Shown here piece by piece: positions 11,082-29,924 of a stretch of 64,000 nucleotides of DNA (within the stretch, counting starts at the first letter, position 1; each line of letters starts with the position of its first letter). The notes beneath the pieces were generated by a model. The model searched no databases. It saw only the letters and a list, made by a program, of their open reading frames with translations, and was not told the DNA's origin. The DNA is taken from the IMG/VR virus record IMGVR_UViG_3300012016_000003, positions 1 to 64,000 of that record; one strand, 5' to 3'. The DNA is from a virus. Its lineage: Duplodnaviria; Caudoviricetes. Both the position numbers and the translations under genes were made by a program.

Positions 11082-11390
11082 ATGGGATATAAAGTAAAAA
11101 TTGTTGAGCCATCCAAATATGCGATGGAAGAGGCAAAGAATGCTCCTAGCCAGTACAATGAAATAAAGAAGAAACATCCTGAATGTGTAATCTTGTTCCG
11201 TGTTGGCGACTTTTATGAAGCCTATTGTGAAGATGCGGAAACTTGTTCCGAGGTGCTTGGAATTACGTTGTCCTACTTTGGGGAAAATCGCCTATATCGT
11301 ATGGCTGGTTTCCACCATTATAACCTTGACATCTTTCTGCCAAAGCTAATACGTGCTGGAAAGCGAATTGCGATATGTGAAAAGGAATAA
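11082..11390 (+). CDS. Stand-alone MutS N-terminal (mismatch-binding, domain I) protein
   Basis: QYNEIKKKHPECVILFRVGDFYEAYCEDA..LGITL..MAGF. Confidence 0.88.
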   Translation: MGYKVKIVEPSKYAMEEAKNAPSQYNEIKKKHPECVILFRVGDFYEAYCEDAETCSEVLGITLSYFGENRLYRMAGFHHYNLDIFLPKLIRAGKRIAICEKE

Positions 11391-13073: not shown

Positions 13074-13105
13074 TTTGTTTGTTATAGATATTTTGTATAA
13101 TTTTG
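13074..13105 (+). promoter_or_regulatory. Bacteroidota promoter
   Basis: TTTG at ~13074-13081 and TAATTTTG at 13098-13105. Confidence 0.75.
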
Positions 13106-14690: not shown

Positions 14691-14721
14691 TTTGCATATT
14701 GAAAGGAAAGTGGTAATTTTG
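14691..14721 (+). promoter_or_regulatory. Bacteroidota promoter
   Basis: TTTGCATA..TAATTTTG. Confidence 0.75.
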
Positions 14722-14724
14722 CAA

Positions 14725-14907
14725 TACATATAATGATTGAACGATTAGCATTTACAATTTAACTCCTAGATTTAGATTAGACATGCTGCACAGCGGTGCA
14801 GTGAAAAAAAGTAACCCGTGACGGGCGAAAATCAAACTCATAACTTTAGAATTAATTTTATTTGTTTCCATGAAAGCAAGGTGTCCGTGAGGACGGTACT
14901 TGCTTTT
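14725..14907 (+). ncRNA. Candidate small-RNA cassette (antisense-to-start-codon segments plus GNRA hairpins)
   Basis: Non-coding region after the promoter. Hairpins CTGCAC/GTGCAG, CCCG/CGGG and AAAGCAAG-GT-GTCC-GTGA-GGAC-GGTA-CTTGCTTT. Confidence 0.5.
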
Positions 14908-14965: not shown

Positions 14966-15451
14966 ATGGATATACAATTATCAACAAGAACACAAGCAAT
15001 ACTTGTGGCATACAAAAGAGGGTATCGTGTTGTGGATAACAAAGTTCTTTCCCCTAATAAGAAGGAAAGGACTTTAACGAATCATCACGGTTATTCTTCG
15101 TTTTGTATTACCTTTGGTGGGAAAAGTGTGCAAGTCGCTGTACATAGACTTGCAGCGTATCAAAAATTTGGCGACTTATTGCTTGCAGCAGAATGCGTTA
15201 GGCATTTGGACGGCAACCCATCAAACAATAGACTGGAAAATTTAGAAATTGGTACGAACAGTGACAATATGATGGATATACCAAAAGAAAAGAGGAAACA
15301 ACATGCAAAAAGAGCAAGTTCTTTTTTGATTAAATATGATAAAGATAGTGTTATTGAATTTTACAACAAAACAAAATCTTATAAAGAAACAATGAAACAT
15401 TTTGGCATTACATCAAAGGGAACTCTTTATGCAATAATACACAGGAAATAA
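14966..15451 (+). CDS. HNH homing endonuclease
   Basis: VAVHRLAA..CVRHLDGNPSNNRLENLEIGTNSDNMMD; ATG at 14966. Confidence 0.9.
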   Translation: MDIQLSTRTQAILVAYKRGYRVVDNKVLSPNKKERTLTNHHGYSSFCITFGGKSVQVAVHRLAAYQKFGDLLLAAECVRHLDGNPSNNRLENLEIGTNSDNMMDIPKEKRKQHAKRASSFLIKYDKDSVIEFYNKTKSYKETMKHFGITSKGTLYAIIHRK

Positions 15452-27409: not shown

Positions 27410-27601
27410 ATGCCATCTCCAAAGCCGAAAATTAGGCGCAGAAAGGCGAAAAAGCGCAAGGGTAAGGTAGTTATCAAGGAACGTGTTAAATTGCGTTCTA
27501 AAGCCACTAAAAGGGCTAATAGGGATAGTTTGCAACGTATAGAGGCAAGACCACCAGCAGATGTTGCTCCAACATTTAGAATTAAGATAAGAAGGAAATG
27601 A
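27410..27601 (+). CDS. Small very basic protein
   Basis: K/R-rich, 63 aa. Confidence 0.6.
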   Translation: MPSPKPKIRRRKAKKRKGKVVIKERVKLRSKATKRANRDSLQRIEARPPADVAPTFRIKIRRK

Positions 27602-28017
27602 AAATTATACATAATACAAGGGTTGCTTTAATTAGAATTGGGAAAGTGTTACCTTTTGTTATATGTTTTATTATCCTTGTTTCTTATGCTGAAAGTTGTA
27701 TTGGGTTGTATTGTCAAGACTTTGTATTGTATGATAATTATACTATAATAAAGAAACCTATAACATTCTTTATTGGTAATTATTTTGAATACAACTTACA
27801 AACTCTTATAGTACTAACAATAATAAGTATTGCCATTGAAACTTGCATCTATAATAAGATGGCTTGTGGGTATCTAGGCATAAACCTTGTAGAGAAATCC
27901 TACTTTAACTTTGAGATGGATGAGTGGCTTATCTATGCAATATGTTTGGTAAATATAGTAATAGCAAGCTATTTAACATTTAAAGGACTGGTTATTGTTA
28001 CTAAAAGTAAAATATAA
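27598..28017 (+). CDS. Multi-pass membrane protein
   Basis: Several hydrophobic segments; AT-rich gene. Confidence 0.7.
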   Translation: MKIIHNTRVALIRIGKVLPFVICFIILVSYAESCIGLYCQDFVLYDNYTIIKKPITFFIGNYFEYNLQTLIVLTIISIAIETCIYNKMACGYLGINLVEKSYFNFEMDEWLIYAICLVNIVIASYLTFKGLVIVTKSKI

Positions 28018-28289
28018 TGACACAAGAAGAAATAAAAGAAATCCTTTCCGTGCATGGTCTTGATGAAACACTCTTGTTTGAAGACCCATCCTATGAAACT
28101 GCATTCATAGGCATATCACACGATGACAAGGCGGTGTATGACTATGACAAGATGGTTGAATATCTGGTTGAAAAGGATGGCATAACGGAGGAAGAGGCAG
28201 CAGACTTTGTGTGTTACAACACTTTAAGGTCTTTGTCTTATTGTGAAAACTCGCCTATAGTTGTGTTTGACTATAACAAGTACTTTTAG
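28017..28289 (+). CDS. Conserved phage hypothetical protein
   Basis: AFIGISHD..AVYDYDKMV..DGITEEEAADFV.YNT. Confidence 0.8.
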   Translation: MTQEEIKEILSVHGLDETLLFEDPSYETAFIGISHDDKAVYDYDKMVEYLVEKDGITEEEAADFVCYNTLRSLSYCENSPIVVFDYNKYF

Positions 28290-28322
28290 TATTTAATTTT
28301 TGCTAAAATTTCAATCCAAAGT

Positions 28323-28353
28323 TTTGCATATTGAAAATTAAGCACTAAATTTG
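28323..28353 (+). promoter_or_regulatory. Bacteroidota promoter of the sRNA/tRNA cassette
   Basis: TTTGCATA..TAAATTTG. Confidence 0.8.
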
Positions 28354-28356
28354 CAA

Positions 28357-28459
28357 GTGTGTTTAAGGATGGATATTCATAGTTATTAGTTTTTTGGTTA
28401 CAAAAGTTACTACTAGGGTAAAAGGGAAGCCAAATCCTTGTGAAAGGCGGTAGGCTTCC
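28357..28459 (+). ncRNA. Candidate sRNA unit (anti-start-codon segment plus GNRA hairpin)
   Basis: GGATATTCATAGTTATTAGTTTTTT, then GGAAGCC-AAAT-CCTT-GTGA-AAGG-CGGTA-GGCTTCC. Confidence 0.55.
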
Positions 28460-28464
28460 AACAT

Positions 28465-28535
28465 CACGGCAGCAGTGTGAAAGTCGCATAGTGGGTTCAT
28501 TGCCCAAAGGTGGGGTGCAAATCCCACTGCCGTAA
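28465..28535 (+). tRNA. Divergent tRNA-Met(CAT), initiator-like
   Basis: C1:A72 mismatch, ACGGCA/TGCCGT acceptor, GGG/CCC in the anticodon stem, loop TTCATTG; aberrant D and T loops. Confidence 0.6.
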
Positions 28536-28539
28536 CAAA

Positions 28540-28645
28540 GTTTTGCATACTTTTTGAATACTCATAGCTATTTATTTATTTAGGTCATGGATTGATTAGT
28601 TTGACACAATGAAAACCAAGGCGTTGGGAAACGTAGTAGGTTTTC
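28540..28645 (+). ncRNA. Candidate sRNA unit (three anti-start-codon segments plus GNRA hairpin)
   Basis: CAT at 28546, 28563 and 28586, each followed by a U-rich run; then GAAAACC-AAG-GCGTT-GGGA-AACGT-AGTA-GGTTTTC. Confidence 0.55.
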
Positions 28646-28649
28646 ACAT

Positions 28650-28721
28650 TGGGGCTTGGTATAGCGGTTCGTACACAAGATTTTGGCTCTTGTCAGGCAT
28701 GTTCGACTCATGCAGTCCCAA
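28650..28721 (+). tRNA. tRNA-Gln(TTG)
   Basis: TGGGGCT/AGTCCCA acceptor, CAAGA-TTTTGGC-TCTTG anticodon arm, GCATG-TTCGACT-CATGC T-arm. Confidence 0.9.
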
Positions 28722-28766
28722 CAAGATACATATTTTTTTTGTTTAATCAATTTATAAGAGAAACTT

Positions 28767-29924
28767 ATGAAGATTATTAGATTTAATTCCGATGAACTTA
28801 CTCCTTCACTGGCACTTGTAAGTTCAGTAGCACCCATCAAGAGTTCCTTGCCTATACTTAATGACGTAAGGATAGAAACAAAGCAAGGGCAAGAGGGTGG
28901 TGTGATTGTAGAACTAACCACAAGTGACGGGGAAACATGGCTGCAATGGCAGACACCTATTACGGAAGCCGAGGTTGGCATCTTGCTTTGCATCGAGGCA
29001 AAGGCATTGTTGCAGGCATTGAAAAACCTTAATGGAAAGACCATCACAATGAACATTGACGAGGAAAAGCACATTGTTGTATGCAAGTATGACAACGGAA
29101 AGTTCTCACTCCCCTATGAAAAGGCAGATGATTTCCCTACACCGTCAAGCAATATGGATGGGGCAAAGGAAATGAAGGTTGATGGCAAGCGAATACGCAC
29201 GGCTATGGAAAGGACTGGCTTTGCATCATCAAGTGATGAACTTCGCCCAGTAATGACTGGTGTTCGATTTGAGTTCTTCAAGGACGGGATGGTTACGGTG
29301 GCTACGGATGGTCACAAGTTGGCAAAGTACAAAGACCTTACCATTACAAGCAATGAGGAAGAGATGTTTGGCTTTACAATGCCAAAAAGACCTTGTGGCA
29401 CACTTATGAACGTGTTGGCTAGCACCATAGACAGTAACATAGATGTTATGTTCAATGATAGATGCCTTGTGGTAACAAACACCCAGTTTAAGATGACCGC
29501 AAGACTCCTAGAGGGTCGCTACCCTAACTATGATGCCGTAATCCCAAAGACAAATGACAAGATTGTGAACATTGAAAAGGCTGCATTCATTACCGCCTTA
29601 AAACGTGTCCTCCCTATGGGTAGCCTTACATCGGAACTTGTGGCACTTACTTTCTACAATGGCGAAATGACCATTTCGGCAGAGGACTTTGAGTTTAGCA
29701 AGTCGGCAAGCGAGGTGGTAGGATGCGACTATAGCCCCGAACTTCCATCTTTCTCCATTGGTTTCAAGGGTAGTTCCTTGTTGCAGTTGTTGCAGAACAT
29801 TGATTGTGATACGGTAAAGATTTCACTTGCCGAGCCATCCCGTGCTGGTATCATTACCGAGGGCGAGGAAAACAACACCTATGACTACACATCATTGATT
29901 ATGCCTATGCTTTTGGCTAACTAA
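28767..29924 (+). CDS. dnaN: DNA polymerase III beta sliding clamp
   Basis: LPILNDV, ELRPVMTGV, VATDGHKLA, RLLEGRYPNYDAVIP, SLIMPML. Confidence 0.97.
   Translation: MKIIRFNSDELTPSLALVSSVAPIKSSLPILNDVRIETKQGQEGGVIVELTTSDGETWLQWQTPITEAEVGILLCIEAKALLQALKNLNGKTITMNIDEEKHIVVCKYDNGKFSLPYEKADDFPTPSSNMDGAKEMKVDGKRIRTAMERTGFASSSDELRPVMTGVRFEFFKDGMVTVATDGHKLAKYKDLTITSNEEEMFGFTMPKRPCGTLMNVLASTIDSNIDVMFNDRCLVVTNTQFKMTARLLEGRYPNYDAVIPKTNDKIVNIEKAAFITALKRVLPMGSLTSELVALTFYNGEMTISAEDFEFSKSASEVVGCDYSPELPSFSIGFKGSSLLQLLQNIDCDTVKISLAEPSRAGIITEGEENNTYDYTSLIMPMLLAN

What the first reader, a model, noticed from the sequence alone, without database searches (positions are those of the whole stretch)
28357..28724. 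tRNA-punctuated cassette of candidate small RNAs antisense to translation-start regions
Seen: after a strong promoter (28323-28353) the plus strand reads [segment A][hairpin][tRNA-Met-like][segments B, C, D][hairpin][tRNA-Gln]. Reverse-complemented, the segments look like Bacteroidota A-rich translation starts plus a few codons: aaaaaactaataact-ATG-AATATC (A), caaaaagt-ATG-CAAAAC (B), aataaataaatagct-ATG-AGTATT (C), caaactaatcaatcc-ATG-ACC (D). They do not head credible minus-strand genes, and I found no full match to a start in this window (best is 12 nt, aataactatgaa, at the 19933 and 20865 starts). The two hairpins differ in sequence but share a fold: a 7-bp outer stem, an internal loop ending in RGUA, a 4-5-bp inner stem and a GNRA loop. 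Inference: these are modular sRNAs (variable seed plus constant scaffold) that silence specific host mRNAs such as defence genes. Normal RNase P and 3'-end tRNA processing would release them, using the tRNAs as punctuation. I know of no described phage system with this architecture.
Basis: partly seen in the sequence, partly recalled or inferred. Interest (0 to 1): 0.78.

Follow-up and report, generated by a model that had tools for sequence, protein, structure and literature searches.

The report
Phage tRNA operon with conserved leader hairpins
This stretch is the start of a rumen phage's tRNA operon. A small, undescribed RNA hairpin sits directly in front of a decayed initiator-tRNA copy and again in front of a real tRNA-Gln. 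The idea that the spacers are antisense silencers of start codons has little support.

Summary
Comparison with about 30 related phage contigs changes its meaning.

- **Locus.** It is the variable tRNA operon upstream of dnaN in a family of ~80-kb Bacteroidota phages from bovine gut samples.
- **tRNA-Met-like element.** It derives from an initiator tRNA (C1xA72, GGG/CCC anticodon stem, CAU). In this phage it has lost the D/T-loop elbow, and neither ARAGORN nor Rfam calls it.
- **Hairpins.** Both are copies of one conserved motif with covarying stems, an invariant A and GUA resembling a bulged-G motif, and a GNGA loop. The motif is absent from Rfam. About 30 of about 46 copies end 10 nt or less before a tRNA 5' end.
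- **Seeds.** The spacers are the least conserved part. Their four CATs are near chance. Antisense matches to gene starts are enriched only in this genome, and only one segment matches in register.

My best reading is a cis-acting, partner-recognised leader module that RNase P leaves at the 3' end of the released leader. Its function is unproven. A trans-acting leader RNA is not excluded. This scan had already reported what appears to be the same motif in another genome (e1-5870240).

The parts
28323..28353 (+). Bacteroidota-type promoter (-33 TTTG, 19-nt spacer, -7 TAAATTTG)
   Evidence: Pattern scan. The same promoter type occurs at 13074, 14691, 25535 and 34976. It is conserved in L001, L006 and L007.
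28357..28423 (+).
   Evidence: Predicted to be unstructured (z = +0.55). Identity to L007 is 55% with gaps, with box A conserved.
28424..28460 (+). Leader hairpin H1: bulged-G-like internal loop plus GUGA tetraloop
   Evidence: Fold. Covariance models R1 and R2 score it 50.2 and 47.9 bits. Covariation.
28465..28536 (+). Initiator-tRNA-derived tRNA-like element. It has C1xA72, a GGG/CCC anticodon stem and a CAU triplet in loop UUCAUUG. The D arm is a 6-bp stem with a triloop, and the T arm is a 7-bp stem with a GCAA loop.
   Evidence: Not called. Its homologue in L013 is called tRNA-Met(CAT). Covarying cloverleaf across 12 relatives. Folds at -30.3 kcal/mol, z = -3.7.
28537..28609 (+). Box C lies at about 28558-28574.
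   Evidence: Unstructured (z = +1.34). Identity to L007 is 46% with gaps, with box C and GTCAT conserved.
28610..28646 (+). Leader hairpin H2, of the same family as H1, ending 3 nt before tRNA-Gln
   Evidence: Fold. R1 and R2 score it 51.0 and 47.6 bits.
28650..28722 (+). tRNA-Gln(UUG)
   Evidence: ARAGORN; Rfam RF00005, 48.1 bits.
28767..29924 (+). dnaN-like sliding clamp gene, the conserved downstream anchor of the locus
   Evidence: Its homologues carry PF00712, PF02767 and PF02768. Used to fetch the related loci.

Best explanation
The stretch is the promoter-proximal part of a phage tRNA operon. One early-type promoter probably drives a transcript of about 370 nt. It contains a leader, hairpin H1, an initiator-tRNA-derived tRNA-like RNA, a spacer, hairpin H2 and tRNA-Gln.

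The two hairpins are copies of a conserved RNA module, seen in about 30 contigs of this phage family and a few others, that sits directly against the 5' end of tRNAs. Its stems vary freely. Its unpaired A and GUA and its GNGA loop do not, so a partner (a protein, or possibly RNase P RNA) probably recognises its shape.

I infer that it acts in cis on the pre-tRNA. It would fix the geometry at the RNase P site and keep the tRNA folding apart from the AT-rich leader. After cleavage the leader would end in a hairpin with a tail of only 1-6 nt.

- **Shown:** the promoter motif, the tRNA-Gln, the conserved covarying hairpin, its adjacency to tRNA 5' ends, and the initiator-tRNA ancestry of the second element.
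- **Inferred:** co-transcription, RNase P cleavage, partner binding and the benefit to the phage.
For: - **The locus is a tRNA operon in every relative.** tRNA-Gln is nearly always kept, and Leu, Lys, Ser, Asn, Ala, Glu, Met and Phe come and go.
- **The head of the operon is conserved.** Promoter, leader, hairpin, then a gene starting CGCGG and ending CCGCAAC with anticodon arm UUGGGCUCAUAACCCAA. ARAGORN calls this gene tRNA-Met in L013 and L026.
- **The hairpin structure covaries.** In 30 distinct copies, 86% of cells pair, against 71% in shuffles. There are 47 double-sided changes against 15.5 expected. Sliding the partner columns collapses pairing to 22-52% (seed alignment).
- **All credible copies lie on the transcribed strand**.
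- **The motif is confined to this locus.** Five complete genomes hold 1-3 copies each. Where I checked positions (G000, G009, G010), the copies lie within about 3 kb upstream of dnaN.
- **Most copies abut a tRNA.** By my count, about 30 of about 46 copies end 10 nt or less before a tRNA or initiator-like 5' end. These include Gln, Glu, Leu, Ser, Ala, Met, Phe and insert-bearing tRNAs.
- **Conservation ranks as expected for a cis module.** Against L007, promoter 94%, hairpins 81-86%, tRNA-like 76%, spacers 46-55%.
- **No Rfam family matches**.
Against: - No transcript ends or processing sites were observed. The RNA-library runs are held as contigs only.
- A plain insulating or exonuclease-blocking hairpin would not need invariant loop nucleotides, so a specific partner is implied, and none was identified.
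- About a third of copies do not abut a tRNA. They precede a second hairpin or an ORF and are followed by a U-run.
- One chromosomal Bacteroidales copy ends a noncoding stretch with U9. The module is therefore not strictly tied to tRNAs and may be primarily a 3'-end or terminator-type element.
- A hairpin 1-6 nt from the cleavage site could hinder binding of the RNase P protein to the leader rather than help it. This rests on established knowledge and was not tested here.
Confidence: 0.5

Rival explanations
1. The leader and spacer are trans-acting antisense small RNAs made of a variable seed plus a constant hairpin scaffold. tRNA processing releases them, and they pair with translation-start regions of host or phage mRNAs.
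For: - RNase P cleavage would leave RNAs of about 105 nt (leader plus H1) and about 110 nt (spacer plus H2), each ending in a hairpin with a tail of only a few nt. This is inferred.
- Both spacers are predicted to be single-stranded.
- In this genome, antisense 11-mers from the spacers hit 5 start regions against 0.7 in shuffles.
- Segment A matches AATAACTATGAA in register at the 20865 start and TAATAACTATG at 11082.
- A chromosomal Bacteroidales locus uses the same hairpin plus U9 at the end of a promoter-driven noncoding stretch. This fits a shared small-RNA 3' handle.
- Small RNAs derived from tRNA spacers have precedents (literature listed).
Against: - CAT count is near expectation: 4 observed against 1.5-3 expected.
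- Only segment A is in start-codon register. Segment B matches codons 2-5, and the 13-mer is a low-complexity TAAA repeat.
- Four complete relatives show no enrichment.
- The locus was picked because of this resemblance, so the window's own P value is inflated.
- Segments A and C are paralogues, and segment B copies the promoter's -33 box.
- Some relatives have leaders of only about 30 nt (L018).
- Host targets could not be tested.
Confidence: 0.1
2. The hairpin is a decoy or handle for a host or phage RNA-binding protein. The strongly transcribed phage operon supplies several copies, which would titrate or recruit that protein. The base sequence of the spacers would not matter.
For: - The loop nucleotides are invariant while the stems vary.
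- Several relatives carry 2-3 tandem copies.
- The same motif occurs at the 3' end of a chromosomal noncoding stretch.
- A conserved 63-aa, highly basic protein (27410-27601) is encoded within 0.2-5 kb of the hairpins in all relatives examined. In L029 and L164 it lies directly downstream of a hairpin.
Against: - No partner is identified. The basic protein has no family match, and its linkage may be ordinary synteny.
- Adjacency to tRNA 5' ends is not explained by a pure decoy role.
Confidence: 0.15
3. The hairpin is a transcription signal. It would act either as a weak or regulated intrinsic terminator (attenuator), or as a nut/boxB-like site that loads an antitermination factor onto RNA polymerase just after an early promoter.
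For: - Copies that do not abut tRNAs carry an A-tract before and a U-run after the stem. Examples are GGCUUUUU in L025, L026 and L031, and U9 in L120.
- The first copy always lies about 30-180 nt downstream of a conserved promoter.
- Lambda boxB is also a small hairpin with a GNRA-type loop (from memory).
Against: - H1 and H2 in the window have no U-run after the stem, and the terminator scan finds nothing there.
- Terminating in front of the operon's own tRNAs would be self-defeating unless it is regulated.
- Internal copies lie deep in the operon directly before tRNAs.
- No candidate antiterminator is known.
Confidence: 0.15
4. The hairpin acts at the DNA level. It would be a boundary or recombination site for exchanging tRNA cassettes between phages, possibly tied to the neighbouring HNH endonucleases.
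For: - The module 28287-28645 is 99-100% identical in L006, whose dnaN is 91% identical. It is then replaced exactly after H2 by another tRNA-Gln allele plus an HNH gene.
- Contigs from runs X19 and X20 show the same junction at 28645.
- The tRNA content of the locus is highly variable.
Against: - A breakpoint at the edge of a conserved block is expected from homologous recombination or homing co-conversion without any special site.
- Covariation that preserves RNA pairs, including G-U, together with strict strand bias, points to RNA.
- No integrase-type gene was seen near the locus.
Confidence: 0.07

Closest known systems
Phage tRNA gene clusters, such as the T4 tRNA region with its co-transcribed small stable RNAs C and D (from memory)
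   Same: tRNAs and extra small structured RNAs are made from one phage promoter, and host tRNA-processing enzymes cut them apart.
   Different: This is a different phage lineage with a Bacteroidota host. A specific conserved hairpin sits against tRNA 5' ends, which I do not know of in T4. One 'tRNA' is an initiator-tRNA relic without an elbow.
Bulged-G (S-turn, loop E, sarcin-ricin) RNA motif (from memory)
   Same: An internal loop has an invariant G-U-A on one strand and an invariant A within R-A-N on the other. This is the pattern expected for a bulged G, a U-A trans pair and a sheared A-G/A pair. As in the sarcin-ricin loop, a GNRA-type tetraloop lies nearby.
   Different: The strand order is reversed relative to the sarcin-ricin loop, and 3-4 base pairs separate the motif from the tetraloop. 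The three-dimensional fold is not shown, and there is no homology to rRNA.
Bacterial initiator tRNA(fMet)
   Same: It shares the C1xA72 mismatch, three G-C pairs at the base of the anticodon stem, a CAU triplet and the 3' end ...CCGCAAC. In relatives the anticodon arm reads UUGGGCUCAUAACCCAA, close to the E. coli sequence as I recall it.
   Different: All family members have a 6-bp D stem with a triloop and G8. The window copy also lacks the T loop (7-bp stem plus GCAA) and has U32, U37 and G38. ARAGORN and Rfam reject it. Whether it can be charged or used in initiation is unknown.
Small RNAs derived from tRNA spacers, such as E. coli 3'ETS-leuZ (from memory; literature listed), and the tRNA-linked small RNAs (TMERs) of murine gammaherpesvirus 68 (from memory)
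   Same: Non-tRNA parts of a tRNA precursor are freed by tRNA-processing enzymes and can act as regulators.
   Different: No accumulation or activity of the spacers is shown here. The hairpin lies 5' of the tRNA, not 3'.
Lambda nut site boxB (from memory)
   Same: A short hairpin with a GNRA-type loop lies shortly after an early promoter.
   Different: The internal loop, the repeats deep inside the operon and the adjacency to tRNAs have no counterpart in nut sites. No N-like factor is known.

Membership tests
tRNA (Rfam RF00005): element at 28650-28722 | Cloverleaf with canonical D and T loops, scored by tRNA models | tested here: met
   ARAGORN calls tRNA-Gln(UUG). Rfam scores 48.1 bits against a gathering score of 29.
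tRNA (Rfam RF00005): element at 28465-28536 | Cloverleaf with canonical D and T loops, scored by tRNA models | tested here: not met
   No ARAGORN call, with or without introns allowed. No Rfam tRNA match at E up to 10. The D loop lacks GG, and the T arm is a 7-bp stem with a GCAA loop.
Bacterial initiator tRNA | C1xA72 mismatch, three consecutive G-C pairs closing the anticodon stem, and anticodon CAU | tested here: met
   Read directly from the sequence and from alignment A7.
Bacterial initiator tRNA | Functional tRNA body (elbow, canonical anticodon loop CUCAUAA) that can be aminoacylated | tested here: not met
   The window's anticodon loop is UUCAUUG and the elbow elements are absent. Aminoacylation cannot be tested with these tools.
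Bulged-G / loop E motif | Conserved G-U-A opposite a conserved A, in an asymmetric internal loop flanked by helices | tested here: met
   A10, G27, U28 and A29 are invariant in 15 seed copies, and the flanking stems covary.
Bulged-G / loop E motif | S-turn three-dimensional geometry | not testable with these tools
   No RNA 3D prediction or probing is available.
   The runs are held as contigs only, so no ends or strand can be read.
   The window's genome is enriched (k=11: 5 observed against 0.7 expected), but four complete relatives are not. Only segment A is in register. Host not tested.
Intrinsic terminator | G+C-rich hairpin immediately followed by a U-run | tested here: not met
   No terminator-like site is found at H1 or H2. 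The sequence after the stems reads AACAUC and ACAUU. Some copies in relatives, and the chromosomal copy, do carry U-runs.
Any Rfam family | Covariance-model match to the hairpin or to the whole cassette | tested here: not met
   Only tRNA is found. All other matches are far below their gathering scores.

The most novel reading that the evidence does not exclude
The hairpin is a specific 3'-end handle shared between a host small RNA and phage leader RNAs. RNase P cleavage at the abutting tRNA would then be a phage's way of making hairpin-ended regulatory or decoy RNAs without a terminator. These RNAs would either base-pair with targets or soak up the host protein that reads the handle. The elbow-less initiator-tRNA relic would be kept mainly as the cutting signal.
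Probability: 0.2. Interest if true: 0.75.

Novelty: new variant of a known kind. Interest (0 to 1): 0.5.

Why it matters
Phage tRNA operons are well known. Two features here are not described, as far as I could find.

- **A conserved leader hairpin.** It is shape-specific and sits against the RNase P site of many different tRNAs in a whole family of rumen phages.
- **A family-wide initiator-tRNA-like gene.** Some lineages keep it as a covarying cloverleaf after it has lost the tRNA elbow. One study reports that phages generally avoid encoding tRNA-fMet (PMC10264068).

If the hairpin has a partner, it points to an unknown step in RNA processing or RNA-protein recognition in Bacteroidota, a group whose RNA biology is poorly charted. 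It would also be a compact natural part for releasing RNAs from tRNA-punctuated transcripts.

Tried and rejected
- **Public phage records.** A DNA search found no match. The nearest DnaN in cultured or deposited phages is 36% identical or less.
- **Rfam.** Nothing but tRNA.
- **False pattern hits.** L003 and L016 are chance matches inside coding regions with no outer stem.
- **Bacterial genomes.** Of 83 core-pattern hits, only 4 plausible loci have the full fold: the L120/L094 locus, L144 and L147/L101. A fifth full-length model match, L119, looks like a chance hit. None abuts a tRNA, and the three genomes with a model match each hold one copy. The motif is therefore not a general host tRNA-leader feature.
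- **RNA-library runs X18-X20.** Contigs cover the cassette but cannot show transcription, ends or strand, so I draw no conclusion on expression.
- **Minus-strand genes.** ORFs 28363-28548 and 28286-28507 overlap the conserved tRNA-like RNA, and indels break them in L007. Rejected.
- **Second promoter after the tRNA-like element.** The -33 box is duplicated, but the -7 position reads TAGCTATT and L007 lacks proper spacing. Unlikely.
- **Kink-turn, 11-nt tetraloop receptor, and Cas13b or Cas12a repeat mimicry.** Compared by eye from memory; the sequence patterns do not fit.
- **Long-range pairing of box A with box C.** An 8-bp AUAGUUAU/AUAGCUAU helix appears in the minimum-energy fold, but no covariation is available to test it.
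- **Plus-strand mini-ORFs over boxes A and C** (MDIHSY-type). Only one synonymous difference, too little to judge.
- **Neighbouring proteins.** Pfam and PHROGs give no RNA-related function.
- **Third look-alike hairpin at 14873-14906.** It has a similar fold but was not matched by models R1 or R2 at the thresholds used.

Full report
**What is in the sequence**

The window is the first 64 kb of an 87.6-kb viral record with 40% G+C. The finding lies in a 480-nt gap inside a long plus-strand gene block. The gap sits between a 90-aa ORF (28017-28289) and a sliding-clamp gene (28767-29924).

- **Promoter.** The stated promoter fits the Bacteroidota consensus: TTTG at 28323-28326, a 19-nt spacer, then TAAATTTG at 28346-28353. 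The same type heads other plus-strand units in this genome.
- **tRNA-Gln.** ARAGORN finds one tRNA in the window, tRNA-Gln(UUG) at 28650-28722. Rfam agrees at 48.1 bits and finds nothing else credible.
- **Hairpins.** H1 gives -16.0 kcal/mol (z = -2.7) and H2 gives -13.5 kcal/mol (z = -4.2).
- **Spacers.** The two AT-rich spacers are predicted to be unstructured, with z of +0.6 and +1.3.

**Relatives show what the locus is**

The clamp protein has hundreds of relatives on contigs of about 75-85 kb. I fetched 10 loci by exact protein. A further 15 or so family loci came from IMG/VR, and more came from pattern scans.

In all of them the DNA upstream of dnaN is a variable tRNA operon. tRNA-Gln is almost always present. 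Leu, Lys, Ser, Asn, Ala, Glu, Met and Phe come and go.

The head of the operon is conserved: promoter, a leader of about 30-180 nt (about 30-90 nt in most loci), a hairpin of the H1 type, and 2-10 nt later a gene that starts CGCGG and ends CCGCAAC.

Runs holding the sequence are mostly labelled bovine gut metagenome.

**The 'tRNA-Met-like' element**

- In L013 and L026, ARAGORN calls this gene tRNA-Met(CAT).
- It carries the marks of a bacterial initiator tRNA: a C1xA72 mismatch, three G-C pairs at the foot of the anticodon stem, and CAU.
- All family members have an odd D arm, a 6-bp stem with a triloop.
- In most members, including the window, the D-loop GG and the T loop are gone. In the window the T arm is a 7-bp stem with a GCAA loop, and the anticodon loop reads UUCAUUG.
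- The cloverleaf still covaries. Twelve of 20 predicted pairs keep pairing through double changes.

So it is a maintained structured RNA of initiator-tRNA origin, probably not a working tRNA. One study reports that phages generally avoid encoding tRNA-fMet (PMC10264068).

**The hairpin is a conserved RNA motif**

- **Anatomy.** Aligned copies share a 5-7-bp outer stem, a 4-nt 5' loop whose second base is always A, and a 3-4-bp inner stem ending UU/AA. They also share a GNGA loop and a 5-nt 3' loop, N-R-G-U-A, with invariant GUA.
- **Covariation.** Both stems covary. In 30 distinct copies, 86% of cells pair, against 71% in shuffles. There are 47 double-sided changes against 15.5 expected. Pairing falls to 22-52% when the partner columns are slid (seed set). 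The seed copies were picked with a pairing descriptor, which inflates the paired percentage but not the variety of pair types.
- **Distribution.** Covariance models find copies only in the closer relatives (DnaN 43% identical or more) and a few other phage contigs. Essentially all lie on the transcribed strand.
- **Copy number.** Five complete genomes carry 1-3 copies each. Where I checked positions (G000, G009, G010), the copies lie within about 3 kb upstream of dnaN.
- **Resemblance.** The invariant bases fit a bulged-G (loop E, sarcin-ricin-type) module. That is a resemblance from memory, not a structural test.
- **Earlier report.** This scan reported what appears to be the same motif in another genome and reached the same comparison (e1-5870240).

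**Position of the hairpin**

By my count, about 30 of about 46 copies end 10 nt or less (mostly 1-6 nt) before the 5' end of a tRNA or of the initiator-like gene. The tRNAs include Gln, Glu, Leu, Ser, Ala, Met, Phe and insert-bearing ones.

The rest are the upstream member of a tandem pair or precede an ORF. Those are followed by a U-run.

A scan of about 186,000 prokaryote genomes gave 83 hits to the core sequence. Only four plausible loci have the full fold, and none of them is next to a tRNA. A fifth full-length model match, L119, looks like a chance hit.

One of these is chromosomal, lying between rex and a SUI1 gene in a Bacteroidales genome. There the hairpin is followed by U9 and closes a promoter-driven noncoding stretch of about 230 nt.

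**The 'seeds'**

- The spacers hold four CATs where 1.5-3 are expected. The spacers are T-rich, so each CAT mimics an A-rich start on the other strand.
- Segments A and C are paralogous repeats that L007 also keeps. Segment B repeats the promoter's -33 box.
- Against L007, whose dnaN is 75% identical, the promoter is 94% identical. The hairpins are 81-86%, the tRNA-like element 76% and the spacers 46-55% with many indels.
- Antisense k-mers from the spacers hit this phage's own start regions more often than shuffles do. At k=9 the count is 15 against 7.7, and at k=11 it is 5 against 0.7.
- Only segment A matches in start-codon register, at the 20865 and 11082 starts. The other matches are to codons 2-5 or to a TAAA repeat.
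- Four complete relatives show no enrichment.
- The locus was chosen for this resemblance, so the single positive result is weak. Host targets were not testable.

**A mosaic module**

L006 has a dnaN 91% identical at the DNA level. It is 99-100% identical to the window from the stop codon of the upstream gene through H2. After H2 it carries a different tRNA-Gln allele and an HNH gene.

Contigs from three other samples show about 1% divergence over 28290-28645, against 4-8% in the flanks. Two of them (runs X19 and X20) have the same junction at 28645.

This may reflect selection, recent exchange, or both.

**Mechanism**

I commit, at about 0.5, to a cis-acting leader module recognised by a partner and placed against the RNase P site.

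The transcript, RNase P cleavage and partner binding are all inferred. The rivals are:

- a protein decoy or handle (0.15);
- a terminator or antitermination signal (0.15);
- a DNA-level cassette boundary (0.07).

The short tail left after cleavage would protect the released leader from 3' exonucleases. This keeps the trans-acting readings alive. No available data show RNA ends.

**Verdict**

The locus is a phage tRNA operon, which is a known kind. It carries two apparently undescribed features, the leader hairpin and the elbow-less initiator-tRNA relic. Interest 0.5.

Noticed in passing
window 28646-28766; L006 1787-2500: The tRNA-Gln gene is swapped as a unit between close relatives (55% identity, while everything upstream is 99-100% identical). 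In L006, L012 and L018 an HNH_3 endonuclease gene sits between tRNA-Gln and dnaN. This looks like homing with co-conversion that ends at the hairpin.
   Followed up: partly
window 27410-27601 (+): A 63-aa, extremely basic protein (Lys/Arg-rich at both ends) has no Pfam or PHROG family. It is conserved in every complete relative within 0.2-5 kb of the hairpins. In L029 and L164 it lies directly downstream of a hairpin, so it is a possible RNA-binding partner.
   Followed up: partly
window 14873-14906 (+), after the promoter at 14691: A look-alike hairpin (outer stem, GUG, UCC-GUGA-GGA, CGGUA) lies in the leader of an HNH_3 endonuclease gene (14966-15451). The fold is similar, but the covariance models did not match it at the thresholds used.
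   Followed up: partly
L120 4040-4290 and L094 1776-1812 (Bacteroidales chromosomal contigs): A promoter-driven noncoding stretch of about 230 nt lies between rex and a SUI1 gene. It ends in a perfect copy of the phage hairpin followed by U9, so it is a candidate host small RNA sharing the motif.
   Followed up: partly
L147 268-304 and L101 7625-7661 (Muribaculaceae): A weaker copy of the hairpin (25 bits) lies about 80 nt after a Bacteroidota promoter and is followed by a second long hairpin. It may belong to another chromosomal noncoding RNA.
   Followed up: no
L011 537-643; L012 1384-1471; L171 2042-2144; L191 582-693; L010 about 2260-2390: Several tRNA genes in related phages carry inserts of 18-31 nt in or near the anticodon loop. 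ARAGORN calls them only when introns are allowed. Two of them directly follow a hairpin.
   Followed up: partly
window 28369-28389 and 28554-28583 (+): Boxes A and C can be read as plus-strand mini-ORFs ending ..D/N-I/T-H-S-Y (MDIHSY* and a TTG-started NTHSYLFI*). The same reading exists in L007. This is probably coincidence.
   Followed up: no
L176 2731-2765 (123.6-kb viral contig): The hairpin also occurs in a much larger phage, between a tRNA and what looks like the 3' half of another tRNA.
   Followed up: no
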